Of a DNA stretch of 64,000 bases, positions 1-58,627 are shown piece after piece (within the stretch, counting starts at the first letter, position 1; the number at the start of each line of letters is the position of its first letter). The notes under the pieces are model-generated. The model was not told the origin of the DNA. It ran no database searches and saw only the letters and a list, made by a program, of their open reading frames with translations. This stretch comes from a virus. The translations under genes and the position numbers were made by a program. The stretch lies in IMG/VR virus record IMGVR_UViG_3300045988_161343. One strand, 5' to 3'.

Positions 1-1
1 T

Positions 2-748
2 CACGTTTTGGATAAACCGCATATCTTTTTAGATGAAATTATGCGACAGGCACAAGATAGTGAAATTATTAGATTATCTATGTGGGTACGAGAAGGTAAG
101 CCCCTTGGGCAATTCCCAGTAGCTAAAGAATAGGTCTAGATTTTAAGGCCATATGAATTAATTCCAGAAATGTATGATTGGGCAGATCAAACTTTATGTG
201 CTTCTAATAAAAGACGTATTGAAATTAATAATAAAGTTCGAGAGCGACAAGGACGAGGAGCTACTCCAGAAATAGGAGATAAAATCATAGGATTAACTAA
301 TCATTGGGATTTTACATCTACTGATGGATTATGGCCTTTAACTAATGGATGTATTGGAACAATTACTAATTATCAAATTATTCCATATAATTATCCAAGC
401 TTTATTTATAATAAACAACTCCAATATATGTTTACGGGGATGGATATACCTAATGGAAGATTTGAATCTATACCTATTGATTATGATGCTTTAATTACAG
501 GTACTCCAGCCTTTGATAATAAGCAAGCATTTAGAATGAATAGTTTTGCTAGAAAATCTGATGCATTAGAAGCTCCTTATTATTTTGCTTATGCTTATGC
601 AATAACTGTTTGGAAAGCTCAAGGTAGTGAATGGGATAAAGTGTTATTAATTGAAGAGGCCCATCCTTTTGACACATTAGAACATTAGAAATATTTATAT
701 ACTGGCATTACAAGAGCCAGTGAAAAATTAGTAGTTATAAGGAAATAA
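2..748 (+). CDS. SF1 helicase (RecD/Dda/Pif1-like), C-terminal part; gene starts upstream of window
   Basis: Frame of ORF 170..688 extended through 3 in-frame TAG; motifs AYAITVWKAQGSEWDKV (helicase motif V) and YTGITRASEKLVVI (motif VI) lie on both sides of a TAG; stops at TAA 746-748. Confidence 0.6.
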
Positions 749-751
749 TAT

Positions 752-1351
752 ATGAATGTATTAAGTATAGATTTTGATATTATTATGGCACCAAGTATTA
801 ACTTATATAATAGCATGGTACCATAGGCTCATTGGGAAGATTTATTAAAAAGTTTACCTAATCTTACTACTACTCCTGCTGATTTAAATATTTATTCTAA
901 TATACTTAGATATTTATTACGGACTATAGATAAAACAACTTCTATTTATATTTCTTATGGTCATAATAAAATAAAAGAATATTTACAATATGATTATGAT
1001 TTAAATATAACTAATATAGATCATCATCATGATATTTTTTATAATCCTAAAGACGCAGAAAATAAATTATGTGATTGTACTTGTGCTGATTGGGTTAAAT
1101 ATTTCTATGATTAGGATAAATTAAAAGATTATACTTGGGTTCACAATGACAATTCTTGTGATCCTAATTTTGAAGTAAATTTTAAATATAACAAAATACC
1201 ATTTAAGGAATTTAAATTTACTAATTCGTATGATAAATATTTTATCTGTTTATCTCCAGAATGGGTTCCACCTTATTATCATAGTTTATTTTATACTCTT
1301 TTGGACTGTTTAAATGAAAAAAATAATTATCATTTGGAGATTATAGAATAA
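752..1351 (+). CDS. hypothetical protein (about 199 aa, 2 internal TAG)
   Basis: RBS aaggaaataatatATG; single frame to TAA at 1349-1351 with in-frame TAG after MVP and after YFYD; not in standard-code ORF track because of TAG. Confidence 0.5.
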
Positions 1352-1542
1352 TGGAAATACAAAATTTACTTAATTAGTTAGGTCATGAGTTAGATCTACA
1401 ACAACAACAAAATCAAAACCAAATTAATTATTTACGCAATGAAAATCAAAAATTGAAAAATAATTTATCAATTTATAAACAAAATTTAATTGAATTAAGT
1501 AGCTTTATAAATAAAATAGCTAATGACATAGATGATTTTTAA
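1351..1542 (+). CDS. small Gln-rich coiled-coil-like protein (63 aa, 1 TAG)
   Basis: ATG overlaps upstream stop (taATGg); MEIQNLLN-TAG-LGHELDLQQQQNQNQ...; TAA at 1540-1542. Confidence 0.4.
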
Positions 1543-1611
1543 AATTGATTTTGATGAAATTTTATGATATAATATTTATAGAAAATAATAATAAATTAAG
1601 GAGGTAGGGAA

Positions 1612-1662
1612 TTGAATACTTATTTTGGTTGCCATAAGGACAATTTTATGCATTCCAAATAA
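1612..1662 (+). pseudogene. duplicated 5-prime fragment of the Pol III alpha gene (RBS AAGGAGG + TTG, 16 codons, LNTYFGCHKDNFMHSK)
   Basis: About 24 of 30 nt identical to the start of the polymerase gene at 2263 (MNTYFNCHNHTDYS); lies immediately upstream of the GIY-YIG endonuclease gene. Confidence 0.4.
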
Positions 1663-1696
1663 GTTGATTTCCATAATATAATGAGGAGGGATGCTT

Positions 1697-2266
1697 ATGT
1701 TTGGCATTTATAAAATAACAAATAAATAGAATAATAAAATTTATATAGGTAAATCTAAAGATATAGAAGATAGATGGATTTATCATACTTCTCATTATAA
1801 TGACTCCAAAGAATGGGATAAAAATTTATATAAAGCTTTTAGAAAATATGGTATAGATAATTTTAATTTTGAAATTATCGAGTCAATGGATGAAGAAACT
1901 TATAATAAATTTGGGAATAATAGAGAACAATACTGGATTATCTATTATGACTCTTTTAATAATGGGTATAATGAAACACCAGGCGGAGATGGCGGGTATA
2001 ATGTAAGTGCTGTAAAAACAAATTCTAAATTAACTAAAGAAGAAGTTATTCAAATTAGAACAATGTATAATAATTGTAATATCTGCGTATCTGATGCTTA
2101 TGAGCTATTTAAAGATAAAATTACAAAGAGAGGGTTTCAAGCAATATGGTTAGGTCAAAATCATAAAACTATTATGCCCGAAGTTTTTACTGAAGAAAAT
2201 AAAAAGAAACATAATTATTTAGAACGACAAAGAACAGGTAGGCTAAGGCAGGAAAGAAAAAAATGA
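1697..2266 (+). mobile_element. free-standing GIY-YIG homing endonuclease (189 aa, 1 TAG inside the GIY-YIG module)
   Basis: RBS gaggagggatgcttATG; GIYKITNK-TAG-NNKIYIGKS...R...H.. pattern typical of GIY-YIG (I-TevI-like); C-terminal part is ORF 1886..2266; TGA stop overlaps the polymerase ATG (ATGA). Confidence 0.75.
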
Positions 2267-5200
2267 ACACTTATTTTAATTGTCATAACCATACTGATTA
2301 TTCGAACCTCCGTTTACTGGATTGTATAAATAAACCAGAAACTTTAATTGATAAAGCTATTGAATTAGGACTTTCGGGAATTGCTATCACAGATCACGAA
2401 AGTCTTTCTGCTCATATGACAGTAAATCAATATGCTAAAAAAATCAAAGAAAAATATCCAAATTTTAAAATAGCATTAGGCAATGAAATTTATTTAACTG
2501 ATGATAGAAGCACAGGACAAAAGTATTACCATTTTATTTTAATTGCTAAAGATGCTATAGGATATCGAGCATTAAAAGAATTAAGCTCAATTGCTTGGCA
2601 AAATTTATATGTTGATAGAAAAATGGAACGTGTTCCACTTTTAAAGAATGAATTAAAATCAGTAGTAGAGAAATATAAAGGACATTTAATTGCCACTACT
2701 GCATGTATTGGTGGAGAATTAGGTACTTGCCTTTTAAAGGCTGTAGAATATAAAGAACAAGAGAATAATTATGAATTATATCAAATTTTAAAACAAATAG
2801 ATACTTTTCTTACCTTCTGTCAAGATTTATTTGGTGAAGATTTCTATTTAGAGATTGCTCCATCGACCGCGGCAGATCAAAAACTTGTAAACCATATGAT
2901 TTATAAAATCGGTCATAAATATGGAATTAAAGTAGAAGTTGCTACCGATAGTCATTATTTAACAAAAGAAGATAGACCAATCCATAAGGCTTATCTTAAT
3001 TCAAAAGATGGAGAACGAGAAGTTGACAAATTTTATGAATTTGCTCATTTAATGACTTATGATGAAGTCTTTAAATTAATTGAACCTTGTTTTATTTACT
3101 TAGATATTGAAGAACAACCAGAAGAAATCGCAAAAGAAATTTTAAATAATACTCTTGAAATCCAAAATAAAATTGAAGATTTTTCGCTTGAAAGAAAACA
3201 AATAATTCCAAAAGTAGAGGTAACTGATTATCCTCAATCATTAACTGGTTGGTATGGTGAGCGTGAAGAGAAATATCCTGTTTTATGTAGCTTATTAATG
3301 AGCAACAATCCTCAAGAACGTTATTGGGTTAATGAATGTTATATGTCTTTATTGGAAAAGATGTATAATAAAAGTATTTCAGATGATAAGTTAGAAATTT
3401 ATTTAAGTCGTCTTGAAACTGAAGCTGATATTATAAAAGATATTGGTGAAAAATTAGATGACTGCCTTTTTGCTTATTTTAATACTTTTAAACATTATAT
3501 TGATTTGTTTTGGAATTGTGGCTCGATAGTAGGTCCAGGACGTGGTTCGGCCACTGGCTTTTTATCTAATTATTTGTTAGGTATTACTCAGCTTGATCCT
3601 ATAAGATGGGGTCTTCCTTATTGGCGTTTCTTAAACAAAGAACGTGCTGAATTACCTGATATTGATATTGATTTGGCTCCTTCAAAACGTCCAGCAATTT
3701 TTGAAGCTATTCGTAAAGAGCGTGGAGAGTTAGGTTTAATTCAGGTCGCTACATTTGGTACTGAAACTACTAAATCTGCTATTCTTACTGCTTGTAGAGG
3801 TTATAGGTCTGATAAATATCCAAATGGTATTGATGTAGATGAAGCTCAATATATGTCCTCTCTTATTCCACAAGAACGTGGATTCTTATGGGAAATTAAT
3901 GATGTTATTTATGGTAATGAAGAAAAAGATAGAAAGCCTGTTAAAACATTTATTAATAAAGTAAATGAATATCCAGGGCTTCTTGATATAATTATTTACA
4001 TTGGTGGTATCGTTAATAAACGTTCTTCTCATGCTTCTGGTGTTATTCTTTATGGCGATGATCCATATGATACAGCGGCATTTATGAGAACGCCTAGTGG
4101 CAGTTTAATTACTTGTTGGGATTTACATCAAGCTGAAGCAGCAGGTGATACGAAATATGATTTCCTTGTTACTGAAGCTTCTGATAAAATTATCACTTGT
4201 TATGAATTATTATTAAAGGCAAAAGAAATTCCTAACTTATCCTTAAGAGATTTTTATAATCAATATATTCATCCAGAAGTAATAGATACAACTGATCAAA
4301 AAATTTGGGATCATCTTGCCGCCGGAGATGTATTAGACTGTTTTCAATTTTCTACTGGTGTAGGATTAGCCATTGCTAAAAAATTAAAGCCACAAGATCC
4401 TATGGAAATGACCGCGGCTAATGCTATGATGCGTCTTATGTCTGAAAAAGGTAAGGAATCACAGCAAGATAGATTTTATCGTATTCAGCATCAAGGTATT
4501 CAAGCATTTGATCAAGAAATGAAACAACATCATTTGCCGCAAGAGCTTATTGATAAATTCCATAAGCATTGTGATAAATATTATGGTTGTTGCCCTTTAC
4601 AAGAGCAAATGATGGAAATCCTTATGGACATAGCACACTTTACATTGGGAGAAGCGAATTCTGCCCGTAAAGTTGTTGCTAAAAAACAAATGGCTAAAAT
4701 TCCTCAATTAAAAGAACAGGTATTTAGCCGTTTTGATAATAAAAATGATGCAGAATATTTTTGGGAAACGGCAGTAGCACCACAATTAGGATATGCGTTT
4801 TCATTAAATCATAGTCTACCTTATAGTTTTGTGGCTATTCAAATGATTTATTTTGTTATTCATTATAATCCTATCTATTGGAATTGTGCTTGTTTGATTG
4901 TTAATAGCGGTTCTTTAGAAGATAATAGCGAAGAAGAAATCGTAGATATTTATGATCCTGAAGCAGATGATTTAGCCAATGGTGTTACTTTTGAAGATTT
5001 GCCAGATAAAAAATCAAAAGTAAGAAAAACTAATTCTACTGATTATGGAAAGATTGCTAAGGCTATTGGAGACATTCGTAAAGCTGGTATTCAAGTAAGT
5101 CTTGCTGATATTAATAAATCAGAATTTAGTTTTATTCCTGATGTTGAAAATAATCAAATCCTGTTTGGCTTAAAAGGTATGCTAAATGTTGGTGATGATG

Positions 5201-6267
5201 TAGTTAAAACTATTATTGAAAATAGACCTTATAAATCCCCAAGAGATTTTTTAAATAAAGTTAATCCTAATAAGCAAGCAATGATTTCACTTATTAAAGG
5301 TGGAGCATTTGATCATATGATGGATAGAAAACTTTGTATGGTCTGGTATATTTGGGAAACTTGTGATAAAAAGAAAAATCTTAATCTTCAAAATTTAGCT
5401 ACTTTAATGAAATTCAATCTTCTTCCTGCGGATACTCTTGAACGGCAGCAAGCTTTACACATTTATGAATTTACTCGTTATTTAAAACAAATTTGTAAAT
5501 ATGATAAAGTTTATTACAAATTAGATGATAGAGCTATTGATTTTTTACAAAAAATTGATAAAGATAGTTTAATCCAAAATAAAGATTCTAATTTTTATTT
5601 AAATATTAAAGATTGGAATGATAAGGTCTATCAAGGTTGGATGGATATTTATCGTGAACAAATTGCTGATAATAAAGAAGAAATCTTAAATAAATTAAAT
5701 GAAATTATATTTAAAGAAGACTGGAAAAAATATTGTCCTAAAGTAAATTATTCAGCTTGGGAAATGGAAGTATTATGCTTCTATTATCATGAACATGAAT
5801 TGGCTCAAGTCAATCAAAATAAATATGGGTTTGCCGATTTTTACAGTTTACCTGAAGATCCAGTAGTAGAAAGAAGTTTTGTTAAAGCTGGAAAAACAAT
5901 AAATATTTATTATTTATCTAAATTATGTGGTACTTGTATTGCTAAAAATAAAAATAAAAGTATTGTAACAATTCTTACTCCGACAGGAGTAGTAAATGTA
6001 AAATTCAGAAAAGAATATTTTACATTATTCGATAAACAAATTTCTCAAAAACAACCTGATGGAACTAAAAAAATTATTGAAAAATCTTGGTTTAATCGCG
6101 GTAATATGATTGTGGTTCAGGGTATTCGCTCAGGCGATGATTTTATTGCTAAAAAGTACGCCTCAACTTCTGGTCATCAACTTTATCATATTGATACTAT
6201 TCAATCAAATGGAGATTTAATTTTAAGAAGTGAACGATATCAAGGAGTAGCAGAAGATGAAGAATAA
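2263..6267 (+). CDS. dnaE: DNA polymerase III alpha subunit (DnaE-like, N-terminal PHP domain), 1334 aa, no TAG codons
   Basis: PHP-domain motifs at N-terminus (CHNHTDYS, ITDHESL), polymerase palm motif GPGRGSATGFLSNYLLGITQLDP; uninterrupted in standard code. Confidence 0.85.
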   Translation: MNTYFNCHNHTDYSNLRLLDCINKPETLIDKAIELGLSGIAITDHESLSAHMTVNQYAKKIKEKYPNFKIALGNEIYLTDDRSTGQKYYHFILIAKDAIGYRALKELSSIAWQNLYVDRKMERVPLLKNELKSVVEKYKGHLIATTACIGGELGTCLLKAVEYKEQENNYELYQILKQIDTFLTFCQDLFGEDFYLEIAPSTAADQKLVNHMIYKIGHKYGIKVEVATDSHYLTKEDRPIHKAYLNSKDGEREVDKFYEFAHLMTYDEVFKLIEPCFIYLDIEEQPEEIAKEILNNTLEIQNKIEDFSLERKQIIPKVEVTDYPQSLTGWYGEREEKYPVLCSLLMSNNPQERYWVNECYMSLLEKMYNKSISDDKLEIYLSRLETEADIIKDIGEKLDDCLFAYFNTFKHYIDLFWNCGSIVGPGRGSATGFLSNYLLGITQLDPIRWGLPYWRFLNKERAELPDIDIDLAPSKRPAIFEAIRKERGELGLIQVATFGTETTKSAILTACRGYRSDKYPNGIDVDEAQYMSSLIPQERGFLWEINDVIYGNEEKDRKPVKTFINKVNEYPGLLDIIIYIGGIVNKRSSHASGVILYGDDPYDTAAFMRTPSGSLITCWDLHQAEAAGDTKYDFLVTEASDKIITCYELLLKAKEIPNLSLRDFYNQYIHPEVIDTTDQKIWDHLAAGDVLDCFQFSTGVGLAIAKKLKPQDPMEMTAANAMMRLMSEKGKESQQDRFYRIQHQGIQAFDQEMKQHHLPQELIDKFHKHCDKYYGCCPLQEQMMEILMDIAHFTLGEANSARKVVAKKQMAKIPQLKEQVFSRFDNKNDAEYFWETAVAPQLGYAFSLNHSLPYSFVAIQMIYFVIHYNPIYWNCACLIVNSGSLEDNSEEEIVDIYDPEADDLANGVTFEDLPDKKSKVRKTNSTDYGKIAKAIGDIRKAGIQVSLADINKSEFSFIPDVENNQILFGLKGMLNVGDDVVKTIIENRPYKSPRDFLNKVNPNKQAMISLIKGGAFDHMMDRKLCMVWYIWETCDKKKNLNLQNLATLMKFNLLPADTLERQQALHIYEFTRYLKQICKYDKVYYKLDDRAIDFLQKIDKDSLIQNKDSNFYLNIKDWNDKVYQGWMDIYREQIADNKEEILNKLNEIIFKEDWKKYCPKVNYSAWEMEVLCFYYHEHELAQVNQNKYGFADFYSLPEDPVVERSFVKAGKTINIYYLSKLCGTCIAKNKNKSIVTILTPTGVVNVKFRKEYFTLFDKQISQKQPDGTKKIIEKSWFNRGNMIVVQGIRSGDDFIAKKYASTSGHQLYHIDTIQSNGDLILRSERYQGVAEDEE

Positions 6268-6520
6268 AATTGATTATGATGAATTATAGGATTTGTTAAA
6301 AACCCATCAACATATTGAAATTAGAGGAACAATTTTAATTAAATTTGAATAGACTCCTTATCTTAGAGTAATTATAAGAGAGTTAAATGGAAATGATTAT
6401 TGGATGGTAGATACTCCAGATATCTTATGCCTTTTAACATAGTTTTTAGGATCGTGTTCTTATAATTGTTGTAATGGTAAATATTGTTTTTAGTCTTTTA
6501 ATAGAAGGAATAATAAATGA
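6257..6520 (+). CDS. hypothetical small protein (about 87 aa, 4 TAG)
   Basis: ATG overlapping the polymerase 3-prime end; frame closed by TGA overlapping the ATG of the next gene (ATGA at 6517); Cys-rich C-terminus. Confidence 0.35.
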
Positions 6521-7086
6521 ATAATAAAAAATATCAATTAGTCGCACTCATAGGTAAAGCCGGTTCAGGCAAAGATACTATTTTAAAAGATGTAGTAAAA
6601 GCTTATGAACTACCTATGAATATTGTTGTTTCTTATACAACTCGTCCAATGCGTGAAGGAGAGACAGAAGGAAAAGAATATCATTTTATATCTGAAGAAG
6701 ATTTTAAGCAAATGATAAATAATAATCAAATGCTTGAATATGTTCAATTTAATAATTGGTGGTATGGAACTGGCATTAAATGTTTAGCTGATGATAAAAT
6801 TAATATAGGTATTTTTAATCCTTCTGGAATTAGATCATTAATCAATTTTCCAGAAATTGATTTACGGATATATTATATTCATGCTTCTGACAAACAACGT
6901 TTCCTTCGTCAATTAAATAGAGAGGAATACCCTGATATTAAAGAAATTATTAGACGTTATTCTGCTGATGAAGAAGATTTTAAAAATATAAATTTTGATA
7001 ATATGCAAATTTTATTTAATGAAACGGAAAGAGATAGATTAAAATGCTGTGATATAATTACAGATTATGATTGGTTTTGGTACTAA
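6517..7086 (+). CDS. guanylate kinase-like / deoxynucleoside monophosphate kinase (189 aa, no TAG)
   Basis: P-loop GKAGSGKDT and TTRPMREGETEGKEYHF resemble the guanylate kinase family. Confidence 0.6.
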   Translation: MNNKKYQLVALIGKAGSGKDTILKDVVKAYELPMNIVVSYTTRPMREGETEGKEYHFISEEDFKQMINNNQMLEYVQFNNWWYGTGIKCLADDKINIGIFNPSGIRSLINFPEIDLRIYYIHASDKQRFLRQLNREEYPDIKEIIRRYSADEEDFKNINFDNMQILFNETERDRLKCCDIITDYDWFWY

Positions 7087-7177
7087 ATCTTAACCCAAAG
7101 TAGATAATGAATTAATAATAAACACTAAATATAGTATAAGTTCAAAAATTTATACTATATTTAGTGCGGAGGTTAAA

Positions 7178-9445
7178 ATGTATATAATTAAACGTGATGG
7201 TACAGTTGTATTATTTGATAAAAATAAAATAATTAATGCTATTAATAAGGCATTTATAGAAGTCGATGGATAGTTATATGAAAATGATACAGCTACTGAT
7301 ATTGCCAATGATATTGAATCTTGGATGAATAAATGTCCAGATGGTAGTATTGAAGTAGAAGATATCCAAGATATAATTGAAGATTATTTAATGTAGTCAG
7401 AACGACGTGATGTTGCTCGTGCTTATATTAGATATAGATATAAAAAAGAAGTAGCTCGATAGAAAAAAGATGATTTTATTCAAGCTATTAGAAAAAAATT
7501 AGATGGTAAAGATATTAAAAATCAAAATGCTAATGTAGATGAAGCATCATTCGGTGGCCGCATTGGTGAAGCTAGTAGTGTTGTAACGAAACAATTAGCT
7601 TTAGATTATATTGTATCTCCTATGACACGCAAAAATCATTTAGAAAATATAATTTATACTCATGATTTAGATGCTTATTATGTTGGTTCTCATAATTGTT
7701 TAAGTGTACCTTTTGATGATTTACTTGCTAAAGGATTTAATACACGCTAGACAGATGTACGTCCAGCAGGTTCAGTAAATACAGCTTTTTAGTTAGTAGC
7801 TGTTATTTTCCAGATTCAAAGTCTTTCTCAATTTGGCGGTGTAAGTGCTACTCATCTTGATTGGACTATGGTTCCTTATGTTCGTAAATCTTTTTATAAG
7901 CATTATCGTGATGGTATGAAATACTTATGTAATTGTAATTGGAATTTAGATAACTATTTAGAAGATAGCGATACCTATAAAAAAATCATAGATATTCCAA
8001 TTAATGATTATTCAGCTTATCTAAATGAAGCAGATGATGTTGGAGATTTTGATAAAGTATATCAATATGCTATGGATATGACTTTAAAAGAAGTTCATCA
8101 AGCAGTTGAAGGTATGTATCATAATCTTAACACATTACAATCACGTTCTGGTAATCAATTACCTTTCACATCTATTAATTATGGTACTTGTACTCTTCCA
8201 GAAGGAAGAATGATTACTAAAGCACTTTTAGATGTATCTATTGAAGGTATTGGCAAATTACATAAAACATCTATTTTCCCTTGTGGTATTTTCCAATGCA
8301 TGAAAGGAGTTAACCGTGAACCAGGTGACCCAAATTACGATTTGTTTAAACTCGCACTATAGTCCACCGCCCAAAGATTATATCCCAACTATGCAAATGT
8401 TGATTGGTCAGGGAACGCTGGATATGACATCAATGACCCCCGCACCTATTTTTCTACAATGGGATGCAGAACAGCCAATGGATACGATATTAACGGTTTC
8501 GGTTAGTTAAAAGATGGCCGTGGTAATATTTGTCCAGTAACTATTATTCTTCCTACTTTAGCTATGATTGCTAAAAAAGAATGCGAAGAAGAAGGGCAAG
8601 AAGAAGATATTATTCCAGTATTTATGGCTTTATTAAATAGAAAAATTAATGAAGCTCGCATTCAATTAATGGAGCGTTTTGATTGGATTTGCTCTCAAGA
8701 TCCTAAGTCTGCTAAATTTATGTATGAAAATAATTTAATGGCTGGTTATATTCCAGAAGAAGGAATTAGAAGTGCCCTTAAGCATGGCACATTAGCCATT
8801 GGACAAATTGGTTTAGCAGAAACTCTTTAGATTCTTATTGGTAAAGACCATACAACTAAAGAAGGTATGGAATTAGCAAAACGAATTGAACAAATGTTTA
8901 AAGATTACTGTGCAAAAGCAAAAGAACAATTTAAACTTAATTTTGGAGTTTATTACACTCCTGCTGAAAATTTATGCTATACGGCAATGACTAAATTCAA
9001 AGAGAAATATGGTATTATCCCTAATGTCTCTGATAAAGAATTTTTTACTAACAGTATTCATGTTCCCGTTTGGAAAAAAATGTCACCTTTTGATAAAATT
9101 GACATTGAGAGCCAATTGACTGGTTATTCTTCTGCTGGATGTATTACCTATGTAGAATTAGACTCTACTGTAAAGCATAATATTGATGCTCTTGAACAAA
9201 TTGTTAATTATGCAATGGATAAGGATATTCCTTATTTTGCAGTAAATGTGCCTAATGATACTTGCCTTGACTGCGGATATTGTGATGAATTTAATGATAA
9301 GTGCCTTGAATGTGGCAGTACTAATATTCAATAGCTACGTCGTGTAACTGGCTATTTAACTGGAAATTATAAAACTGCTTTTAATTATGGTAAACAGAAA
9401 GAAGTAGAAGCACGAGTAAAGCATACGGGGTAGATGGAATGATAT
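7178..9445 (+). CDS. nrdD: anaerobic ribonucleoside-triphosphate reductase NrdD (about 755 aa, 9 in-frame TAG)
   Basis: ATP-cone start MYIIKRDGTVVLFDKNKI; conserved PGDPNYDLFKLAL, STMGCRT, DGRGNICPVTI, glycyl-radical RRVTGYL near C-terminus. Fragments 7868..8362, 8564..8830, 8867..9334 are one frame joined through TAG; ends at TGA. Confidence 0.85.
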
Positions 9446-9475
9446 AGTTAATTTATGATTTAGTGAATTATTTTA

Positions 9476-9510
9476 ATTAGCAACAAGGAAGAAAATATCC
9501 TTGTTCTAAT
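9476..9510 (+). terminator. hairpin after nrdD (aacaagga...tccttgtt)
   Basis: Inverted repeat with 9-nt loop directly downstream of nrdD stop; weak T tract. Confidence 0.35.
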
Positions 9511-10945: not shown

Positions 10946-10962
10946 GATATAGAGGAAAAATT

Positions 10963-48720: not shown

Positions 48721-48736
48721 TTTTCTTCTCTCCTTT

Positions 48737-49514: not shown

Positions 49515-49562
49515 TAGGTTTTCCTCCTTAAAAATTTATTATTCCATAGTTTTCGCAACATC

Positions 49563-51106: not shown

Positions 51107-51119
51107 CTATAAATCCTCC

Positions 51120-52811
51120 TTATTTGCCAGCCGCTTGACGATTAGCGATTGTTTTTTCACTCTTTTCATCATTAGCTTTTTCTGGTCGGCCACCCTCTTT
51201 AGTTTCTGTTTTTACAGTAGTAGTGGTATTTCCACTTGTTTTATTTTGAGAAGTGTTAGAACTATTCTAATCTTTTTTACCCAAAATATCTTCACCATTT
51301 AATGTAGAACTCATAAGAGGCGGTATCATAACTTCGCTTAAATGTAGAACTTCATTTTCAAAATGAGCCGTATTAAGAATAAAACTCTATGATTGTCCAA
51401 GAGCAATCTAAGGTAACATTTTAGAGAAACCAATCTGAGTTTGCTCTTTATACATTTTAGATAAATCTTTATAATTATATTGTGTAGTTTCTAACATATA
51501 GAATTTATAATTATATTTTTTCTAAACATTCAGGACTGATAATATTCTATCAAAAAATATGTTGAATTGCAAAATTAAATTACGCATGGTAGATTCATCA
51601 TCTAAAATAGACTTTTCTAGGGCGATATTACCATCTGTATTAAACAAATTGCGCGAAACGCCAAATGCATTATATACAGTTCGTTCAACACGCTCTAATT
51701 CATCTGTAGTGGCAGAAGTATTTTTGTCAGAAGTATCAATAGCATCTACATCAGCAAAAGTAGTTAATACATCAACACCTACTGCTCTACGAAGCATTTC
51801 AACAGCATTATTATGAATATCACGAGCTTCATCAATATCAAAAATCAAATCACCATTTTTATCAAGCGGTAATTTCTAAACTAAAATTTTTAACAATTTC
51901 TGCATTTGTTTGCGGCGGTCCAAATCTTGTGCAGCATCCAAATCTAAAATCGCAGGAATAGCATTTACAAATAATGGAATATCATTAGTACCATTTAGAG
52001 CAAACTTAATAGTGCTTTGTAGATCTAACAAATACCAACTACCAGTATTATCACCAGCTACATCAGGTAAAAGTTTACCAGCTTTATAGAGACGATAACC
52101 TATTGTAAATTCATCAGGAAATAATTTTAATACTCTATTACGGTAATTAGTATCCACAAAAGTATCAAAGTATCTCATATCAAATTCAATAGCAGGTAAA
52201 TTACCTACTGAATATCTTGAACGGCAATACTCAATAGGAAGCTGCTATAAAATTAAGCCAGTGCTTGAGGGAACAATATAGGCATAATAAGCTCCACATT
52301 TGATAACTTCAAGAGCCATATCGCCACAAATTTTCTTAATATAAGAATTATCTAAATAATTTAAAATTCGCCAGAAATCTTTTACTGCTTTTATTTCATT
52401 AATATCTTTAACAGCAGAACCATCAGTATTATTAGACTAAATAGCAATAGCCCAATCATAACGATACATATTTGCAAAATAATTACATACTCTTTGATAA
52501 ATACCACTTACTCTAAAAAAGAAACGTGATATTCTTCGCAGTTCTTGAATATCATTACGAATTAAAGCATCCATAACCATAGGTTTTGTATAAATACGTT
52601 CACGGCTATATTTTTCACTACGGCGACCGTAAGTGTCCCATCTAAAAGATCCAAGATTTAAGACAGCATCATCTAATGTCTTAACCCCGACTTTAATCTT
52701 CTTATACTCATTTGGGCCAACGGCAGAATACTCACGTACTCCTCCAGTTATGTCAAAACCTTTTTTATGTATCTATTCATTTCTGGTTAATTCTTCCTTT
52801 TCTAATTCCAT
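51120..52811 (-). CDS. putative portal protein (about 563 aa, about 9 TAG)
   Basis: RBS gaaagaaggtgaagtATG; one phase links ORFs 51876..52178 and 51522..51848 through TAG; position after terminase. Confidence 0.6.
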
Positions 52812-52828
52812 ACTTCACCTTCTTTCAA

Positions 52829-53185
52829 TTAATATCCAGCTTTTCGCATTATATAATCATAAGAAATTAAATTTTCTTCTGTATAAGGAATTTCTATTAA
52901 ATGTAAATCATGTAAAGCACAGAATCTACGTTTTTGATTATCATTATATTGCTATTGATATAATCCACGTTTTCCGCCAAATTTATTACTAGCTTCATAA
53001 TGCTATTTCCCTTGATATTCAATTAAAAAATCAATATTATTATCATCATCAAATATGACAAAATCAAAACGTAAAGGACGACCATTATGTGTTTTTAAAT
53101 CTGGAAATATATATTCCATCTTAAAATTCAGGCCGGCTTCCTCTAAGATTTCTCTAATCTTAATCTCCGCACGACTGGCATCCAT
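52829..53185 (-). mobile_element. small PD-(D/E)xK nuclease, DUF559/Vsr-like (about 118 aa, 2 TAG), free-standing endonuclease candidate between terL and portal
   Basis: ORF 53003..53185 extended through TAG; FDFVIFDDDNNIDFLIEYQGK-TAG-H fits D..E.K nuclease core. Confidence 0.45.
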
Positions 53186-53273
53186 ATATTAAGTCTCCTT
53201 TCTTATCTACAAATAAATTCCTCTTATTATTCTTTTAAAAATTAATTTAAAAGAATAATAAGAGTTGCCCGGC

Positions 53274-55024
53274 TTAATTCATAAACATCCAATCAGCAGC
53301 CCGGAATTTTTTCTTCTTTTTATCTTCTTCTACTTTTTTTATATAATATAATCCATACTCTAATGCAGAGAATTTATCTTTTTTAATACTTTTATTAGCT
53401 TGTTTTAAAATTATATTTAAACCTTCATTTTCTTCACGCAGATTCATAATCTCTTCACGCAATGAAGTAGTTAAACTGAATGGTCTTAAATAATCAGATC
53501 GCGCTTCTGTGGTCATATTCTAACCCACTTTAGTAGTTAATAATTTCTATTTAGCAGTTCGTTCATCAATTAAAAATTTAATCTTACCAGAATTTAATAC
53601 TGACTAAGTAATACTATGTGCTTCAGTATTAATTGGTGCATTAGCTTTCATTAAGTATAAAACATCTAATTCTGTACTATTGGTTTTATATTTTTTATAT
53701 TCTTGAACTGCATCATCCTGAGTTCCACCATAAACTCCAAAATCAGGAATTACTTCAGAAGTTTCAGGATTAATCTATGGCTTAACCATAAAATCTACTA
53801 AACCAACACCAAGTCCATTAGCATCTATTACAATTCTGCGAGCTTTATATTTATAATATAATTTTTTAAGTTTAATAGCCTAATCTTCAAAATGTGTATC
53901 ATTCATAGTGTAAATATTAACTAAACTTTTAATTGGCTCACCATGCGGTTGTGGTGTTACTTTAAATATACAAACAACAGTATCGCATCCTTTGCGGCCT
54001 ACATCAACGCTTAATACATAATAAGATAATTTACTTGAACGGCCAGAAGCTTCATACTCAGGCTAATTCAATATTCTATTTCTATTAAATATTTCGGCAT
54101 TAAAGAAAGCATCTTCAACAGTACCAGACCAGATTGATTCATATTCACGTTCAAAAGAAGCTTCATTATAAGTTCCTTCATTTTTCTGGTCAGTAATAAA
54201 TGTTTTTTGCTGTAATCCGACAGCAACAGGAGTTCGCCAAGTTCCGCCTAATACCATACATCTATCAGGCTATGTAATCATACGAACCAATAAACCAATT
54301 AATCTATCATAAGGATAAGTATTTTTATAGCCAGCAGTAGTAATATAAATCTATGATTTATTTACTGCTTCTTCTTCATGAGTTGTACCATCTTTAGCTC
54401 TACGAGGAATAGCCATAACTGGTATAATAACTTCACGCAAAATCTAATCATCAATACCTACACATTCTTCCATTAGACCGCCATGACGACGCTGACCACG
54501 AGTACTTTCTCTCGCAGCTAAGTTATCAAGGACAGAGCCATTCTTAAATACATAACGTACTTTATCTTTACTCTCTTGGCTCTTACCTCGACCCCAATCA
54601 ATTTCACGTTTAAAGCTCGGTATTAAATCACAAATTTCATTAACTTTGTCATGTAGAATACTTGCGCCTTGTTCTTTACCTCCAGAAGTAACAAATAAAT
54701 GAACACCAGGATAAAGAATACATCTAACCATTAATGCCATAACTGATAAGAATGATTTAGAATAAGCACGAGGGAAAACTGCATAAACATATTGATAGCG
54801 CATTACACATCTTAAAAAAACACGCTAATAGAAGAAAAATTTAAATTCTCCTTCTTTCTATTCTGTACGTGTTCCTCGTACTAAAAAATCAACAAATAAA
54901 TCTGGATATTCGCGCCAAAAGGCAGTGTATTTACGAATGACTGGCATTACGGCATTAATACGTTCTTCAGAAAGACCTATTTTTTTTCGGCTTGTAGATA
55001 GGTCAAGTAAATCTTGTAACGCCA
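53274..55024 (-). CDS. terminase large subunit (about 583 aa, about 9 TAG)
   Basis: ATG overlaps upstream TGA; one phase links ORFs 54444..54803, 54063..54257, 53274..53516; nuclease-domain motif LSVDVGRKGCDTVVCIF. Confidence 0.7.
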
Positions 55025-56240
55025 TTAATCTTCTCTATCAGAGAAAGCATCTATATCTAACTCTGTCTCATTATCTAAAAATTCACTAAAGTCTTCAATA
55101 TCTTTATCTTCTAAAGTTTTTTCAATGTCTTCAATAGACATATCAACATCATCAACAATTGTATCTTCGACGTTTTCTTTAGCCTATTCATCTTCTTTAG
55201 CGTTTTGTTTTAATGCCTAATCAATCATATTGCCAAGATTAGTTTCTCGTTCAATTAAAGTACGGGTATATTTTTGCATATCTTTAATTGTAAAATCTAC
55301 TTTATCATTTGGAGTATCAATATAATATCTTTCGATATAGCCTTGTTTCTCACACATTTCTATTAATTCACCAACAGAGTCAATGAAGTCGCCAGATTCT
55401 TCTTTATTCTAGGCAGCAGTAAATTTGCCCGATTTCATTAAAGAATCATACATTTTAATCATCTTTTGAGCGCCGTCTACATCACCTATATCTAATAACT
55501 AATTAGATTTTAATGATGTCTTACAGGCAAGTTTTAATGTATCAATATGACCCGCAGACTGAATATCGTAAGACTGCATCATTTCATTAAATAACTGCTC
55601 TAAGCGCACCCATTCATCAGGGCTATAACCTTTTCCCCATTTTAAATAAAGATACCGTTTATCTTCGTCTGTCAACTCTGCACCTAAATCAGGAACATCA
55701 AAATCTAATTTATCTTTAAAATAATCTTCTGCAGAATTCCCAAAATCTAGGGGAGGAGGGGCAGGAGGAGGCGGTTCTTTTAATTCTTCTGATGGCAAAG
55801 CAAATGAAGCACGTTGAATGGCCATAGTAATATCTTGAACATCATATCCCTATTGCTTCATTGTTTCTTCTATTTTTTTATTTTGTAAGTCTTGCAAGAA
55901 TTGACTATCTTTCCATCTATAATCTTTCCATTGATTTAATTTCATTGCAGAGAGATAGCGACCTAATATTGTCATTCCAGTGACTTTCGCTCTATCCTTC
56001 GCAAATTTACCCATTAACTAATTCCACTAATCAGGAATGTAAGGAACATCACATTCTTGCAATATCCATAGATAAGTATCCGGATTCCAATTATCTACAT
56101 GCATTGTTATACATTTTTTACATTTTGGTAATTTACCATCATTAGGATATTTATCTAAATTATTAGATGTATAAAACTAAGTTCCATCCATAGTTTTATT
56201 ACATTTTTCACAGTAATATTGTTTACCTTCGCTGGACAAT
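55010..56240 (-). CDS. putative terminase small subunit / DNA-packaging protein with N-terminal Zn-ribbon (about 410 aa, about 8 TAG)
   Basis: Frame from about 56240 (CEKCNKT...CKKC Zn-ribbon) through ORF 55499..55825 to TGA overlapping terL start; assignment by position only. Confidence 0.35.
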
Positions 56241-56257
56241 CAATATTTCTCCTTTCT

Positions 56258-57323
56258 TTAGGATTTCATTTTTTCTTTACGAGAACTATTTCGGCATTTT
56301 TTGCATATACTATAAAATCCATCTTTACTTGTTTTATTATAGGAAAAATATTTATTGTGAGCCAATTTAATTTGCCCACATCGACTGCACTTTTTGTATT
56401 TACCTTTTTTTTGAGTTGTGTAATACCATTCTAAATATTTATCAACAGCTTTATCAGCAATAAGCTTTGGTATTTTATTGCGAAATAAACTTGATATATA
56501 TTCTAAACTGTGGGTAATATTAAATTCTTCTTGTAAAATTTTTTGAATTTCTATATTTTGTAATCCATCAATTTTACATTCTACAATACGCATTAACATA
56601 GGATAATCAGCCAAGGCTTCATCGCAAATATTTTCAAAATCATAAATAAGATACCAAGTATCATCTTCAAAACGATCCCAACTATCTTCTTTTAATCGAG
56701 AATAGTTACATAAGATACAAGAGCAAATTTCAGGAATCATTAATGAAATTCCTTCTGGAATTGGATATCCATCATCATCAAATATTTTTACATCTTCATC
56801 TAATTTAATTTTATATTTAGATCGTGTAAGCTTTACTGGTACTATTGGTTTCCGATAAGCATTTTTAATAACATATTGGTCTTTGCGCATTTCTATTAAT
56901 GCTTTTTTTATAGTGAAAGCATCTTTACCACTCACTACTTTCATTTTTGCTTCCCAAGTTGTAATAGCGTCTTTTAATTGTTTTAAGCTAGGAATTTCTT
57001 CTAAATCTTTTTTTGTAATTGTAACTTTTGGCTAAAATATCATATTTTTATCACTATTAATTAAATTATATATACCATCTTCACCATTCTCTAACTGGGA
57101 AACAAGTCCTTCGAAAGAAGTTTCACGTTTATTAACTGTCATTAATCTATTATCAGTTAATATTTTCTTTTCTTTTTTTTCTTGTTTCTCCATACATAGA
57201 ATTAGATAATCTGCGAGGATTTCTAAATACTTTTCATTAGGATTTGGATTTTCCTCTAAAATTTTTTTTACTAATTCATTTCGTTCTTCAGGAGTTTCAA
57301 GAGTATAATCTAATTTTATCAAG
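56258..57323 (-). CDS. first gene of the minus-strand block: protein with C-terminal Zn-ribbon (about 355 aa, 1 TAG)
   Basis: TTG start after RBS ggaggt; fragment 57032..57379 joins ORF 56258..56944 through TAG; CSRCGQ...CKKC. Confidence 0.4.
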
Positions 57324-57462: not shown

Positions 57463-57491
57463 ATTTATATAAAATTAAAGGAGATAATTTT

Positions 57492-57647
57492 ATGAGAAAA
57501 CCTCGTGGTATTTTAGGTAGTATGGCTTCTAAAGCTAAACGTAGAGCAACTAATAGTGCAACTAGAGCTATTTATCAGCTTATGTGGGGTGAAAACCCTA
57601 AACAGCAAGGAGCTTATAATCCTATTAAAGAACGTAAGAAAAAGTAA
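57492..57647 (+). CDS. small basic (Lys/Arg-rich) protein, 51 aa
   Basis: RBS aaaggagataattttATG; intact ORF. Confidence 0.45.
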   Translation: MRKPRGILGSMASKAKRRATNSATRAIYQLMWGENPKQQGAYNPIKERKKK

Positions 57648-57682
57648 ATATATTATATTTAAAAATTGAAGGAAGTGATTTA

Positions 57683-58120
57683 ATGAAGTTTGTCCATGGG
57701 CTTCTTTTAGGTACTGGGGCGGCATTTGGTTTAGGATGTGCAGCCAGATTTATTTATGATAAAATTATTGAAGCAAAAATCTATAAAGATTATACTAAAG
57801 CGCTTGAAGATTTTATGAATTTTAAAAGCGATAAAAAATATATTGAATATAATAAAGGGCTAGAAGAAAAATATATTGGGCCTGGAATAGTCCATGTCAT
57901 TAAAAATAAAAAAGATTTAATGTCTATTGATTTATCTAAATACGAAGAAGAGGGTGATCCAATCGGCATTACTCTTGGTTCTAAAATTGTAGATAAGGAA
58001 GACCAATATATTATACCTGAAGTAGAAGTTTATAAATTTAAAAATGGATATACTAATTATCGATTCCATCAAGAACGAGGAGTAATTGATCCTAATGAAG
58101 GCATTGTTCCTTTTGACTAA
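57683..58120 (+). CDS. membrane-anchored protein (145 aa)
   Basis: RBS gaaggaagtgatttaATG; N-terminal hydrophobic GLLLGTGAAFGLGCAA. Confidence 0.5.
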   Translation: MKFVHGLLLGTGAAFGLGCAARFIYDKIIEAKIYKDYTKALEDFMNFKSDKKYIEYNKGLEEKYIGPGIVHVIKNKKDLMSIDLSKYEEEGDPIGITLGSKIVDKEDQYIIPEVEVYKFKNGYTNYRFHQERGVIDPNEGIVPFD

Positions 58121-58225
58121 TTTATGAAAAAATTTTTGACATGAGATAAAAAATTTTGTAAAATAAATTATAAAATTTGTGGGATGGCTCGCACTCTCCC
58201 AATTAAAAAGAAAGGAGTGAGTTGA

Positions 58226-58453
58226 ATGCTGAAAACAGCTTATACAAGAAAACTCGATACAGTTGGACGTTTAATGATTCCTTCTAAGCTTCGTGAAGAA
58301 TTGCATATGGTAAATGGTCATAATTATGAATTTTATATTGACGAAGTAGATGGTAAAACTTTTTTATGTATTGAATGTCCTGAAGCTAGTGATGCCGTAG
58401 CTCTTGCAAAAGAAACGTTGGAATAGAATGGGTATCGAGTAATTAAGGAATAA
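58226..58453 (+). CDS. AbrB/SpoVT-family (swapped-hairpin) transcriptional regulator (about 75 aa, 1 TAG near C-terminus)
   Basis: RKLDTVGRLMIPSKLREEL matches the AbrB N-domain GRVVIP.ELR signature; RBS gaaaggagtgagttgaATG; ORF 58226..58426 reads through TAG to TAA. Confidence 0.65.
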
Positions 58454-58459
58454 AATTAA

Positions 58460-58499
58460 AGCGGGAAAATATTTTCCCGCTTATTTTTTTTTATTTTTT
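58460..58499 (+). terminator. strong rho-independent terminator
   Basis: agcgggaaaatattttcccgct followed by T-rich run. Confidence 0.7.
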
Positions 58500-58627
58500 G
58501 AAATATCGTTATTTAAAATTTAAATTATTTTCCGTTTTCTGAAATTAAAAATGAGTTTAGAAATTATTTTGCCAGGTAGGAAGATTTATCCATTTTTTCC
58601 ATTTTTTTTACACGAAACCCTGCCCCC

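What the first reader, a model, noticed from the sequence alone, without database searches (positions are those of the whole stretch)
1..58500. TAG is read as a sense codon throughout this phage segment
Only TAG interrupts the fragmented standard-code ORFs, and neighbouring fragments always share a phase. One 9.3-kb minus-strand frame (40212 to 30901) has about 96 TAG and no TAA or TGA; in about 28% GC DNA a chance TAA-free frame of 3100 codons is essentially impossible. TAG also sits inside conserved motifs of NrdD, a helicase, the GIY-YIG module, portal and terminase. All genes here end in TAA or TGA and none in TAG. The standard code gives an artificially gene-poor minus strand.
Basis: partly seen in the sequence, partly recalled or inferred. 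Interest (0 to 1): 0.9.

Follow-up and report, generated by a model that had tools for sequence, protein, structure and literature searches.

The report
Gut phage reads TAG as glutamine
This 64-kb piece of a roughly 185-kb gut phage genome uses the stop codon TAG as a glutamine codon in most of its genes; the code change is real, but this kind of change is already well documented in gut phages.

Summary
The observation and the interpretation both hold. Over window 1-58,500, the same simple gene caller covers 40% of the DNA under code 11, 41% with TGA as sense and 95% with TAG as sense. The minus-strand late region rises from 30% to 96%.

38 of 45 genes carry 349 in-frame TAGs, and all 45 end in TAA or TGA. 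The 9.3-kb ORF is a tape measure protein with 113 TAGs and no TAA or TGA (chance about 1e-150).

TAG means glutamine. In 22 relatives that have no in-frame TAG at all, the window's TAG sites align to Gln in 55.6% of cells. Genuine CAA/CAG sites align to Gln in 57.9%.

TAG use is graded:
- none in the short early genes at 57.6-64 kb;
- 19% of Gln codons in replication genes;
- 45% in lysis and virion genes;
- none in the major capsid protein or the DnaE polymerase.

This matches the published model for code-15 gut phages (Borges et al.; the phAss-1 group).

The decoding machinery was not found. There is no tRNA in the window or in about 118 kb of this clade's genome. Recoded relatives of the 77%-MCP subclade all carry one tRNA(CUA).

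Verdict: a new member of a known kind.

The parts
1..13626 (+). Replication and nucleotide-metabolism module. It holds a UvrD-like helicase C-terminus, GIY-YIG endonuclease, DnaE-type polymerase, guanylate kinase, NrdD, NrdG, dUTPase and a RuvC-like resolvase. TAG use is sparse: 33 TAGs in 4,347 codons, 19% of Gln-type codons, and 11 of 16 genes carry a TAG.
2263..6267 (+). DnaE-type DNA polymerase III alpha, 1,334 codons with no TAG (50 CAA, 7 CAG). It can be read under the standard code.
7178..9442 (+). NrdD, anaerobic ribonucleotide reductase, 754 residues with 10 in-frame TAGs. Homology runs through all of them.
   Evidence: Pfam NRDD positions 2-562 of 562, E = 1e-141. PDB 8p23 aligns over residues 3-752. 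Database orthologs are 754 residues long.
13670..57193 (-). Late module: lysis, tail, tape measure, head, portal, TerL and a sigma factor. TAG use is dense: 316 TAGs in 13,847 codons (22.8 per 1,000), 45% of Gln-type codons, and 27 of 29 genes carry a TAG. All genes end in TAA or TGA.
15542..16223 (-). Two small genes next to the holin gene (16,386-16,793) with the highest TAG density in the window: 8 TAGs in 78 codons and 11 in 143.
30901..40233 (-). Tape measure protein, 3,110 residues with 113 in-frame TAGs (51% of its Gln-type codons) and no TAA or TGA. It ends in TGA.
   Evidence: Pfam PhageMin_Tail positions 1-201 of 201, E = 3e-27.
46917..50744 (-). Capsid cluster, including the major capsid protein at 47,584-48,720. 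It is nearly TAG-free (0, 0, 1 and 1 TAG in its four genes). It has higher GC3 (0.26 against 0.18) and prefers CAG over CAA.
51120..52811 (-). Portal protein, 563 residues with 8 TAGs.
   Evidence: phrog_2739, E = 1e-73.
53274..55025 (-). Large terminase, 583 residues with 11 TAGs.
   Evidence: Matches phrog_2 terminase large subunit, plus two 'unknown' PHROG families covering its two halves. It is called as a 583-residue protein in the ENA contig.
57683..64000 (+). Block of about 16 short genes (36-145 residues), each preceded by a Shine-Dalgarno site. GC is about 40%. No in-frame TAG in 1,248 codons, so it can be read under either code. Presumably early genes.
58226..58453 (+). AbrB/MraZ-like small gene whose first stop is TAG (58,424-58,426). 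Reading through adds 9 codons up to TAA. A terminator hairpin follows at 58,449-58,492. This is the only candidate in the window for TAG used as a true stop.
   Evidence: Different public gene calls give it 66 or 75 residues.

Best explanation
The window is positions 76,300-140,299 of a 184,981-bp contig of a tailed gut phage with a long tape measure protein. This phage translates TAG as glutamine (NCBI translation table 15).

What is shown:
- TAG is an ordinary in-frame codon in 38 of the 45 genes in 1-57.2 kb.
- TAG never terminates those genes.
- In evolution it exchanges with CAA and CAG exactly as a Gln codon does.
- Its use rises from zero in the short early genes, to 19% of Gln codons in replication genes, to 45% in lysis and virion genes.

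What is inferred:
- Decoding is done by a phage-encoded amber-suppressor tRNA(CUA) charged with Gln. It would be made during infection of a standard-code host and would compete with host release factor 1.
- Early genes can therefore be read by the naive host, while late genes give full-length protein only once the suppressor is present.
- The most highly expressed proteins, and some proteins needed early, avoid TAG.

The tRNA itself was not located for this clade.
For: **Coding density.** 40% under code 11 against 95% with TAG as sense; TGA as sense does not help.

**The 3,129-codon frame.** 114 TAGs and no TAA or TGA, chance about 1e-150.

**Homology across TAGs.** Full-length matches for NrdD, portal and TerL, and the tape measure protein.

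**Stop codons.** 34 TAA, 11 TGA, 0 TAG.

**Codon-level comparison with 80 IMG/VR relatives.**
- At 108 window TAG sites, relatives carry CAA at 68 sites and CAG at 47, and never TAA or TGA.
- The replacement spectrum fits the Gln model at -2.13 nats per cell, against -3.24 for Glu, the next best.
- In the 22 relatives with no in-frame TAG, 55.6% of cells at window TAG sites are Gln. The window's own CAA/CAG sites give 57.9%.

**Context of sense TAGs.** They are spread uniformly along genes, and the base that follows looks like sense-codon context, not stop context.

**Gradient by module.** Fisher p = 3e-11 between the replication and late modules. This matches the published pattern.

**Suppressor in relatives.**
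- Every tRNA-array locus of the 77%-MCP recoded subclade has exactly one tRNA(CUA), 16 of 16. Across the wider group it is present in 43 array loci.
- The long-arm form is homologous to a phAss-1 suppressor.
- None of the standard-code relatives' contigs was hit by the two complete suppressor scans.
Against: **No tRNA found for this clade.**
- There is no tRNA or tRNA-like element in the window.
- There is none in about 29 kb upstream or about 25 kb downstream, read from the same contig or from 92-100% identical relatives.
- Two complete IMG/VR scans for the family's long-arm tRNA(CUA) missed all eight contigs of the window's own clade, including a 188-kb one.

**No other code-change genes.** No release factor or aminoacyl-tRNA synthetase was recognised in the regions examined.

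**No direct evidence.** There is no peptide evidence, so the inserted residue and the timing model rest on comparative inference. The host is unknown, and MAG binning hints are weak.
Confidence: 0.9

Rival explanations
1. TAG is a sense codon but encodes something other than glutamine (Tyr, Ser, Leu, Lys, Glu, Trp or pyrrolysine), or it is decoded ambiguously.
For: - The family's most common tRNA(CUA) has a long variable arm, an architecture otherwise seen in bacterial Ser, Leu and Tyr tRNAs (the comparison with those tRNA classes is from general knowledge).
- Distant NrdD structures show K, E, S, N, V or A at the TAG positions.
- ARAGORN labels CUA tRNAs 'Pyl' by default.
Against: - In standard-code relatives, TAG sites are Gln in 55.6% of cells, about the same as true Gln sites (57.9%). 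Ser is 3%, and Tyr and Leu are lower still.
- The likelihood ranking puts Gln far ahead of all 19 others.
- CAA, two mutations away from TAG, is the commonest alternative codon.
- No pyrrolysine synthesis genes were seen in the annotated genes.
Confidence: 0.04
2. The TAGs are real stops or artefacts. Either this is a decaying prophage full of nonsense mutations, or CAG is systematically miscalled as TAG.
For: Under the standard code the late genes are fragmented. TAG and CAG differ by a single C-to-T change.
Against: - Only TAG interrupts the frames. No TAA or TGA occurs in any of the 45 genes.
- The open tape-measure frame has a chance of about 1e-150.
- The same TAG sites recur in independent assemblies from IMG/VR, ENA and Logan. 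107 of 108 sites have TAG in at least one relative.
- 80 in-frame CAG codons coexist with the TAGs.
- Proteins are conserved across TAGs at about 60% identity to standard-code relatives.
- Many near-identical copies exist in metagenomes.
Confidence: 0.01
3. TAG is read as Gln, but not through a recognisable phage-encoded suppressor of the family's type. This clade would rely on a divergent or novel tRNA, on a host-encoded suppressor, or on another route such as modifying a host tRNA or inactivating RF1.
For: - No tRNA was found in about 118 of about 185 kb.
- Complete scans for the canonical long-arm suppressor missed the whole clade.
- The suppressor gene is visibly replaceable within the family. 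Four loci carry an unrelated short CUA tRNA at that place.
- Borges et al. detected TAG suppressors in only 40% of TAG-recoded genomes.
Against: - About 67 kb of the genome was not examined. By the relatives' geometry, that is where the tRNA array is expected: 62-72 kb beyond the capsid gene.
- My probes were sequence-specific and would miss a replaced suppressor.
- All 16 array loci of the recoded 77%-MCP subclade have a CUA tRNA.
Confidence: 0.12
4. This rival concerns purpose, not decoding. The gradient in TAG use would not be a timing switch. It would come from AT-biased mutation turning CAG into the now-synonymous TAG, together with selection against a poorly decoded codon in highly expressed genes.
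For: - The TAG-free or nearly TAG-free genes include the most abundant virion proteins (major capsid protein and its neighbours). These also have raised GC3 and prefer CAG.
- TAGs show no enrichment at the N-terminus (KS p = 0.27).
- The holin has only one TAG.
- Replication genes are a mix of TAG-free and TAG-bearing genes.
Against: - The early block has no TAG at all in 1,248 codons, although it uses 43 Gln codons.
- The module difference is strong (p = 3e-11).
- The densest TAG use sits in two small genes beside the holin.
- The same bias toward late and lysis genes recurs in unrelated recoded clades.
Confidence: 0.35

Closest known systems
TAG-to-Gln (code 15) recoded gut phages: Lak, crAss-like, Garnet, Amethyst, Jade and Sapphire clades (Borges et al., bioRxiv 10.1101/2021.08.26.457843)
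   Same: - Low-GC gut phage with in-frame TAG that aligns to Gln.
- Recoding is concentrated in structural and lysis genes, variable in replication genes and absent from early genes.
- Recoded and standard-code members occur within one family.
- Relatives carry suppressor tRNA(CUA).
- Genome size (about 185 kb) is in the range given for the larger clades.
   Different: I could not assign the phage to one of the named clades, because no reference sequences were available to me. 84% of genes in 1-57.2 kb carry TAG, which is above the published clade means of 26-71%. No suppressor, release factor or synthetase was located for this clade.
phAss-1 / proposed Phassvirus group (Babkin et al. 2023, PMC10607447; GenBank OQ749652, filed by NCBI under 'Caudoviricetes code 15 clade')
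   Same: - Human-gut origin and TAG-to-Gln recoding.
- A very long tape measure protein: 3,149 residues there, 3,110 here.
- An nrdD-nrdG and dUTPase module, with opposed replication and structural modules.
- The long-arm tRNA(CUA) of phAss-1 is homologous to the one in this family's 77%-MCP subclade.
   Different: - Only 48.8% capsid protein identity, and no nucleotide-level match.
- The genome is about 185 kb against 133-138 kb.
- phAss-1 has two suppressor tRNAs immediately upstream of nrdD. Here that gap holds two palindromic boxes and no tRNA.
- This is a distant relative, not a member of that genus.
crAss-like phages with code 15 confirmed by metaproteomics (Peters et al. 2022, PMC9523058)
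   Same: The same reassignment, TAG to Gln. Those phages provide the only direct peptide-level proof that gut phages do this (abstract seen).
   Different: A different phage lineage. This phage has a 3,110-residue tape measure protein and a DnaE-type polymerase. No proteomic data exist for it.
Classical amber suppression by tRNA(CUA), such as the E. coli supE tRNA-Gln (from general knowledge, not tested here)
   Same: The proposed mechanism is the same: a tRNA with a CUA anticodon competes with release factor 1 at UAG and inserts Gln.
   Different: In the laboratory cases suppression is partial and UAG remains a stop codon for the genome. Here TAG has been removed from all gene ends in the recoded region and is used 349 times as a sense codon.

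Membership tests
Code-15 (TAG to Gln) recoded Caudoviricetes | Coding density is much higher with TAG as sense than under code 11, and is not rescued by other reassignments. | tested here: met
   40% under code 11, 41% under code 4 and 94.6% with TAG as sense on window 1-58,500. For the whole window: 26%, 32% and 87%.
Code-15 (TAG to Gln) recoded Caudoviricetes | In-frame TAG inside conserved phage genes, with homology continuing across the TAGs. | tested here: met
   NrdD, TerL, portal and tape measure protein match their families end to end.
Code-15 (TAG to Gln) recoded Caudoviricetes | TAG positions align with glutamine in homologs. | tested here: met
   55.6% Gln at TAG sites against 57.9% at true Gln sites, in 22 standard-code relatives. 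Likelihood ranking puts Gln first.
Code-15 (TAG to Gln) recoded Caudoviricetes | TAG is not used to terminate genes in the recoded region. | tested here: met
   34 TAA, 11 TGA and 0 TAG among 45 genes. One ambiguous small early gene lies outside the recoded modules.
Code-15 (TAG to Gln) recoded Caudoviricetes | A phage-encoded suppressor tRNA with a CUA anticodon. This is frequent but not universal: it was detected in 40% of such genomes. | tested here: inconclusive
   None in the window or in about 54 kb of flanks. It is present in 16 of 16 array loci of the recoded 77%-MCP subclade.
Code-15 (TAG to Gln) recoded Caudoviricetes | Peptide evidence for Gln at TAG positions. | not testable with these tools
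   This needs LC-MS/MS of virions or of the source faecal sample.
Phassvirus genus (phAss-1 group) | Genome-wide nucleotide similarity at genus level, and a genome of about 133-138 kb. | tested here: not met
   No megablast match of window 40,000-58,500 to any deposited phage. Capsid protein is 48.8% identical. The contig is 184,981 bp.
Phassvirus genus (phAss-1 group) | Two tRNA-Sup(CTA) genes directly upstream of nrdD. | tested here: not met
   The 91-nt gap at window 7,087-7,177 contains no tRNA. In phAss-1 the tRNAs are at 62,445-62,610, next to nrdD.
Wider monophyletic group around phAss-1 (siphovirus-type, very long tape measure protein) | Shared capsid, tape measure and nrdDG gene content, plus a homologous long-arm tRNA(CUA). 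| tested here: inconclusive
   The capsid homology and the tape measure protein of about 3,100 residues are shared. The homologous tRNA was found only in the sister 77%-MCP subclade, not in the window's own clade. No phylogeny was built.

The most novel reading that the evidence does not exclude
The window's own clade would be heavily TAG-recoded while having lost the family's canonical suppressor tRNA. It would then decode TAG through something current tRNA finders and my probes do not recognise: a strongly divergent tRNA, a host-derived factor, or a mechanism that does not use a tRNA. Because standard-code sister lineages sit at about 60% proteome identity, this family would be a compact system for reconstructing how a code change is gained, maintained and re-engineered.
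Probability: 0.12. Interest if true: 0.6.

Novelty: new member of a known kind. Interest (0 to 1): 0.3.

Why it matters
**Practical.** Under the default bacterial code this phage looks gene-poor, and its terminase, portal, tail and tape measure genes appear shattered. The correct table restores 47 genes and 95% coding density. The problem propagates into reference resources. Two PHROG families of 'unknown function' match the two halves of the terminase, and the GenBank record of the related phage phAss-1 still carries fragmented ORFs.

**Biological.** The window adds a well-resolved example to the known code-15 gut phages. It has an unusually clean three-step gradient of TAG use, from early to replication to late genes. 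It also has standard-code relatives close enough to read the meaning of TAG directly. None of this changes the current understanding of phage recoding.

Tried and rejected
**Other reassignments.** TGA as sense gives no gain. TAA as sense merely opens random frames in AT-rich DNA.

**The database residue 'Q'.** Public orthologs of NrdD carry Q at all TAG positions. I rejected this as evidence, because it only reflects the gene caller's translation table.

**Distant NrdD structures.** The TAG positions fall at variable surface sites, so they are uninformative about the residue.

**The 'ORF-free' GC-rich 58.5-64 kb region.**
- I first suspected non-coding RNA, a tRNA array or a host flank.
- Rfam and ARAGORN were negative.
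- It turned out to be short plus-strand genes with Shine-Dalgarno sites, which my long-ORF caller had mis-assigned to the minus strand.

**The hunt for the suppressor tRNA.**
- I walked about 29 kb upstream and about 25 kb downstream.
- I ran three IMG/VR pattern scans, an anchor search with the AAA ATPase embedded in the relatives' arrays, and one metagenome scan with the subclade's tRNA-Phe.
- These found the array and its tRNA(CUA) in relatives, but never in the window's own clade.

**The nrdD upstream gap.** This is the suppressor site in phAss-1. Here it contains no tRNA.

**Host identification.** The genome collection only returned phage contigs binned into 'Mollicutes', 'Clostridium' and 'Muribaculaceae' MAGs. 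Binning alone is not host evidence.

**Correction to my notebook.** It says 37 kb was walked upstream. The correct figure from the contig coordinates is about 29 kb.


Full report
**1. What the window is**

The last 10.3 kb of the window is 100% identical to ENA contig ERZ27250463:k119_68296 (184,981 bp). The window therefore corresponds to positions 76,300-140,299 of that contig.

Near-identical and related contigs of 160-200 kb are abundant in IMG/VR, ENA and Logan assemblies. The gene content is that of a tailed phage.

- Plus strand, 1-13.6 kb: a UvrD-like helicase end, a GIY-YIG endonuclease, a DnaE-type polymerase, guanylate kinase, NrdD/NrdG, dUTPase and a RuvC-like resolvase.
- Minus strand, 13.7-57.2 kb: a holin, tail proteins, a 3,110-residue tape measure protein (Pfam PhageMin_Tail), virion proteins, the major capsid protein, portal, a homing endonuclease, TerL and a sigma factor.
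- Plus strand, 57.6-64 kb: about 16 short genes with Shine-Dalgarno sites, at about 40% GC.

**2. Checking the observation**

Stop-to-stop ORFs of at least 150 codons cover 26% of the window under the standard code. The figures are 87% with TAG as sense and 32% with TGA as sense.

The same greedy gene caller on 1-58,500 gives these results:

| Code | Genes | Coverage | Median length (codons) |
|---|---|---|---|
| Code 11 | 52 | 40% | 106 |
| TGA sense (code 4) | 53 | 41% | 109 |
| TAG sense (code 15) | 47 | 94.6% | 200 |

On the minus strand of the late region, coverage rises from 30% to 96%.

The long frame runs from 40,287 to 30,901. It has 3,129 codons, 114 TAGs and no TAA or TGA. Out-of-frame TAA+TGA frequency there is 0.105 per codon, so the chance of such an open frame is about 1e-150.

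All 45 genes in 1-57.2 kb end in TAA (34) or TGA (11).

Homology runs through the TAGs:
- NrdD matches its Pfam model over positions 2-562 of 562 despite 10 TAGs. It also aligns to a solved NrdD over residues 3-752.
- TerL (11 TAGs), portal (8) and the tape measure domain behave the same way.

**3. What TAG encodes**

Public orthologs of NrdD carry Q at the TAG positions. That only reflects the translation table their gene caller used, so I did not count it as evidence.

For an independent test I compared codons with 80 related IMG/VR loci covering the structural module.

- At 108 aligned window TAG sites, relatives carry TAG at 107 sites, CAA at 68 and CAG at 47. Lys and Glu codons are far behind, and TAA or TGA never occurs.
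- The replacement spectrum at TAG sites fits the empirical Gln spectrum best: -2.13 nats per cell, against -3.24 for Glu.

The cleanest evidence came from an unexpected result. 22 of the 80 relatives have essentially no in-frame TAG in the same genes, and they use TAG as a terminator in 15 of 231 gene ends. These are standard-code members of the same family (74-82% capsid identity, about 60% identity over all aligned proteins).

In these genomes the window's TAG sites are Gln in 55.6% of 1,202 cells, and Gln is the majority residue at 41 of 84 sites. The window's own CAA/CAG sites are Gln in 57.9% of cells. Ser is at 3%, and Tyr and Leu are lower.

TAG therefore behaves as a Gln codon.

**4. 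How TAG is distributed**

| Module | TAGs / codons | TAG share of Gln-type codons | Genes with TAG |
|---|---|---|---|
| Early block (57.6-64 kb) | 0 / 1,248 | 0% of 43 | 0 of 16 |
| Replication and nucleotide genes | 33 / 4,347 | 19% | 11 of 16 |
| Lysis and virion genes | 316 / 13,847 | 45% | 27 of 29 |

- The difference between the replication and late modules is strong (Fisher p = 3e-11).
- TAG-free genes include the DnaE polymerase (1,334 codons), guanylate kinase, NrdG, dUTPase, the major capsid protein and its neighbour.
- The capsid cluster also has higher GC3 and prefers CAG.
- The densest use is in two small genes next to the holin: 8 TAGs in 78 codons and 11 in 143.
- TAGs are spread evenly along genes (KS p = 0.27).
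- The base after a sense TAG resembles ordinary sense context. By contrast, 53% of TAA stops are followed by T.

This is the pattern Borges et al. describe for recoded gut phages. Late structural and lysis genes are recoded, replication genes vary, and early genes stay readable by the host.

**5. The decoding machinery**

The window contains no tRNA by ARAGORN, and no tRNA-like hit in Rfam even at E up to 1.

In the distant relative phAss-1, two tRNA-Sup(CTA) genes sit just upstream of nrdD. The equivalent 91-nt gap here holds two palindromic boxes instead.

I walked outward from both window ends, using the same contig or 92-100% identical relatives:
- About 29 kb upstream: DnaB-like, primase-like, ligase, gyrase-like subunits, RNase H, a radical-SAM enzyme, PhoH-like, an endolysin and a holin-like gene.
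- About 25 kb downstream: small genes, an RNA ligase, SAM synthetase and an AAA_33 kinase.

No tRNA turned up in either direction.

Pattern scans built from the phAss-1 suppressors did find a tRNA array in this family's 77%-capsid-identity subclade. It contains a 90-nt long-variable-arm tRNA(CUA) homologous to phAss-1 sup1.

- All 16 array loci of that subclade have exactly one tRNA(CUA). In four of them it has been replaced by an unrelated short form.
- Two scans that ran to completion (21 and 45 hits) did not hit any of the eight contigs of the window's own clade. They also did not hit any standard-code relative.
- By the relatives' geometry, the array should lie 46-56 kb past the window end. 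That falls inside the roughly 67 kb I could not reach.

So the suppressor step is well supported for the family, but it is only inferred for this genome.

**6. Rivals**

- **Real stops or artefact.** This is excluded by the exclusive use of TAG, the 1e-150 frame, recurrence of the same TAG sites in independent assemblies, coexisting CAG codons, and protein conservation across TAGs.
- **Another amino acid.** The standard-code comparison argues against it. The class-II-like shape of the common tRNA(CUA) is a loose end.
- **A non-canonical decoding route in this clade.** This remains possible, at about 0.12.
- **Timing switch or efficiency.** Whether the TAG gradient is a timing switch or a by-product of AT pressure plus selection for efficient translation cannot be decided from sequence. 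The TAG-free, GC3-rich capsid genes and the lack of N-terminal enrichment favour efficiency. The TAG-free early block and the TAG-dense genes beside the holin favour timing.

**7. Comparison with what is known, and verdict**

TAG-to-Gln recoding in gut phages is established computationally (Borges et al.; Babkin et al. 2023, PMC10607447). It has also been confirmed by metaproteomics in crAss-like phages (Peters et al. 2022, PMC9523058).

NCBI taxonomy already has a 'Caudoviricetes code 15 clade', and public pipelines already translate this phage's genes with Q at TAG.

The phage is not a member of the Phassvirus genus. It shares only 48.8% capsid identity, has no nucleotide match and has a larger genome. 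It does share that group's very long tape measure protein and, through its sister subclade, the same suppressor tRNA lineage.

The finding is real and correctly interpreted. It is a new member of a known kind, of moderate-to-low interest.

Noticed in passing
L008-L024, L070-L072, L074, L075 (IMG/VR relatives), compared with window 37,600-58,700: 22 of the 80 relatives (74-82% capsid identity) have essentially no in-frame TAG in the same structural genes, and they use TAG as a terminator. So standard-code and recoded members coexist in one family. Some recoded and some standard-code relatives share the same 81% capsid identity to the window.
   Followed up: yes
L256 7965-8054; L265 9078-9167; phAss-1 L162 12442-12532: The conserved tRNA(CUA) of this group is 89-93 nt long and has a long variable arm. 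No ordinary tRNA-Gln looks like that. Its acceptor end (U1 opposite U72, or A1-U72, with G73) looks Gln-like from memory. Which amino acid it carries has not been tested.
   Followed up: partly
L342 6473-6545, L345 7688-7760, L348 15138-15210, L347 6666-6737: In four array loci of the 77%-MCP subclade, the single tRNA(CUA) is an unrelated short form of 72-73 nt rather than the long-arm form. The suppressor gene has been swapped within a close group.
   Followed up: partly
L265 7726-7805 (also L346 and L348): ARAGORN calls a tRNA with a UCA anticodon, which would read TGA, in TAG-recoded relatives. The fold looks poor, so it may be a false call or a second suppressor.
   Followed up: no
window 7122-7167: Two 16-nt near-palindromic boxes, ACACTAAATATAGTAT and ATACTATATTTAGTGC, lie 30 nt apart just upstream of nrdD. 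From memory they resemble tandem NrdR repressor boxes. If so, the host NrdR would control the phage nrdDG genes.
   Followed up: partly
window 58226-58492: An AbrB/MraZ-like early gene reaches TAG as its first stop. Read-through adds 9 codons before a TAA that lies inside a strong terminator hairpin. Public gene calls disagree (66 or 75 residues). This is the only candidate in the window for TAG as a true stop.
   Followed up: partly
window 57683-64000: An early-gene block of short plus-strand genes at about 40% GC, against 25-34% elsewhere. It includes a tandem paralog pair at 60934-61245 and 61268-61588. Here CAG outnumbers CAA, the reverse of the rest of the window.
   Followed up: yes
window 46917-50744: The capsid cluster is nearly TAG-free, has GC3 of 0.26 against 0.18 for other late genes, and prefers CAG to CAA. 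This could reflect selection for efficient translation or acquisition of the module from a standard-code phage.
   Followed up: partly
window 15542-16223: Two small genes of unknown function beside the holin have the highest TAG density in the window (101 and 76 per 1,000 codons). One ends in a tail very rich in Q and TAG.
   Followed up: partly
window 53274-55025; phAss-1 record OQ749652: PHROG families phrog_15503 and phrog_24618, both labelled 'unknown function', match the N- and C-terminal halves of this terminase. They were probably built from TerL fragments cut at TAG. The phAss-1 GenBank record is likewise annotated with fragmented standard-code ORFs.
   Followed up: partly
window 1691-2266 and 52829-53185: A GIY-YIG endonuclease lies between the helicase and the polymerase. 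An HNH-type homing endonuclease lies between portal and TerL. Both carry in-frame TAGs (1 and 2), so these mobile-element genes are themselves adapted to the recoded setting.
   Followed up: no
window 50745-51119 and 57194-57571: The open frames of the gene at 49539-50744 and of the sigma-factor gene continue for about 125 codons upstream of their first ATG. Their true starts may be non-ATG codons, or the genes may be longer than I called them.
   Followed up: no
L420 10459-20279 (about 17-25 kb past the window end, in a relative whose anchor protein is 92% identical): An RNA ligase, a SAM synthetase and an AAA_33 kinase lie downstream of the early block. RNA ligase plus kinase is reminiscent of phage tRNA-repair modules, yet no tRNA gene is nearby.
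   Followed up: no
L415-L419 (genome collection): Contigs of this phage family were binned into MAGs labelled uncultured Mollicutes, Clostridium sp. and Muribaculaceae. This is probably composition-driven mis-binning, and at best a weak hint of a low-GC Bacillota-type host.
   Followed up: no
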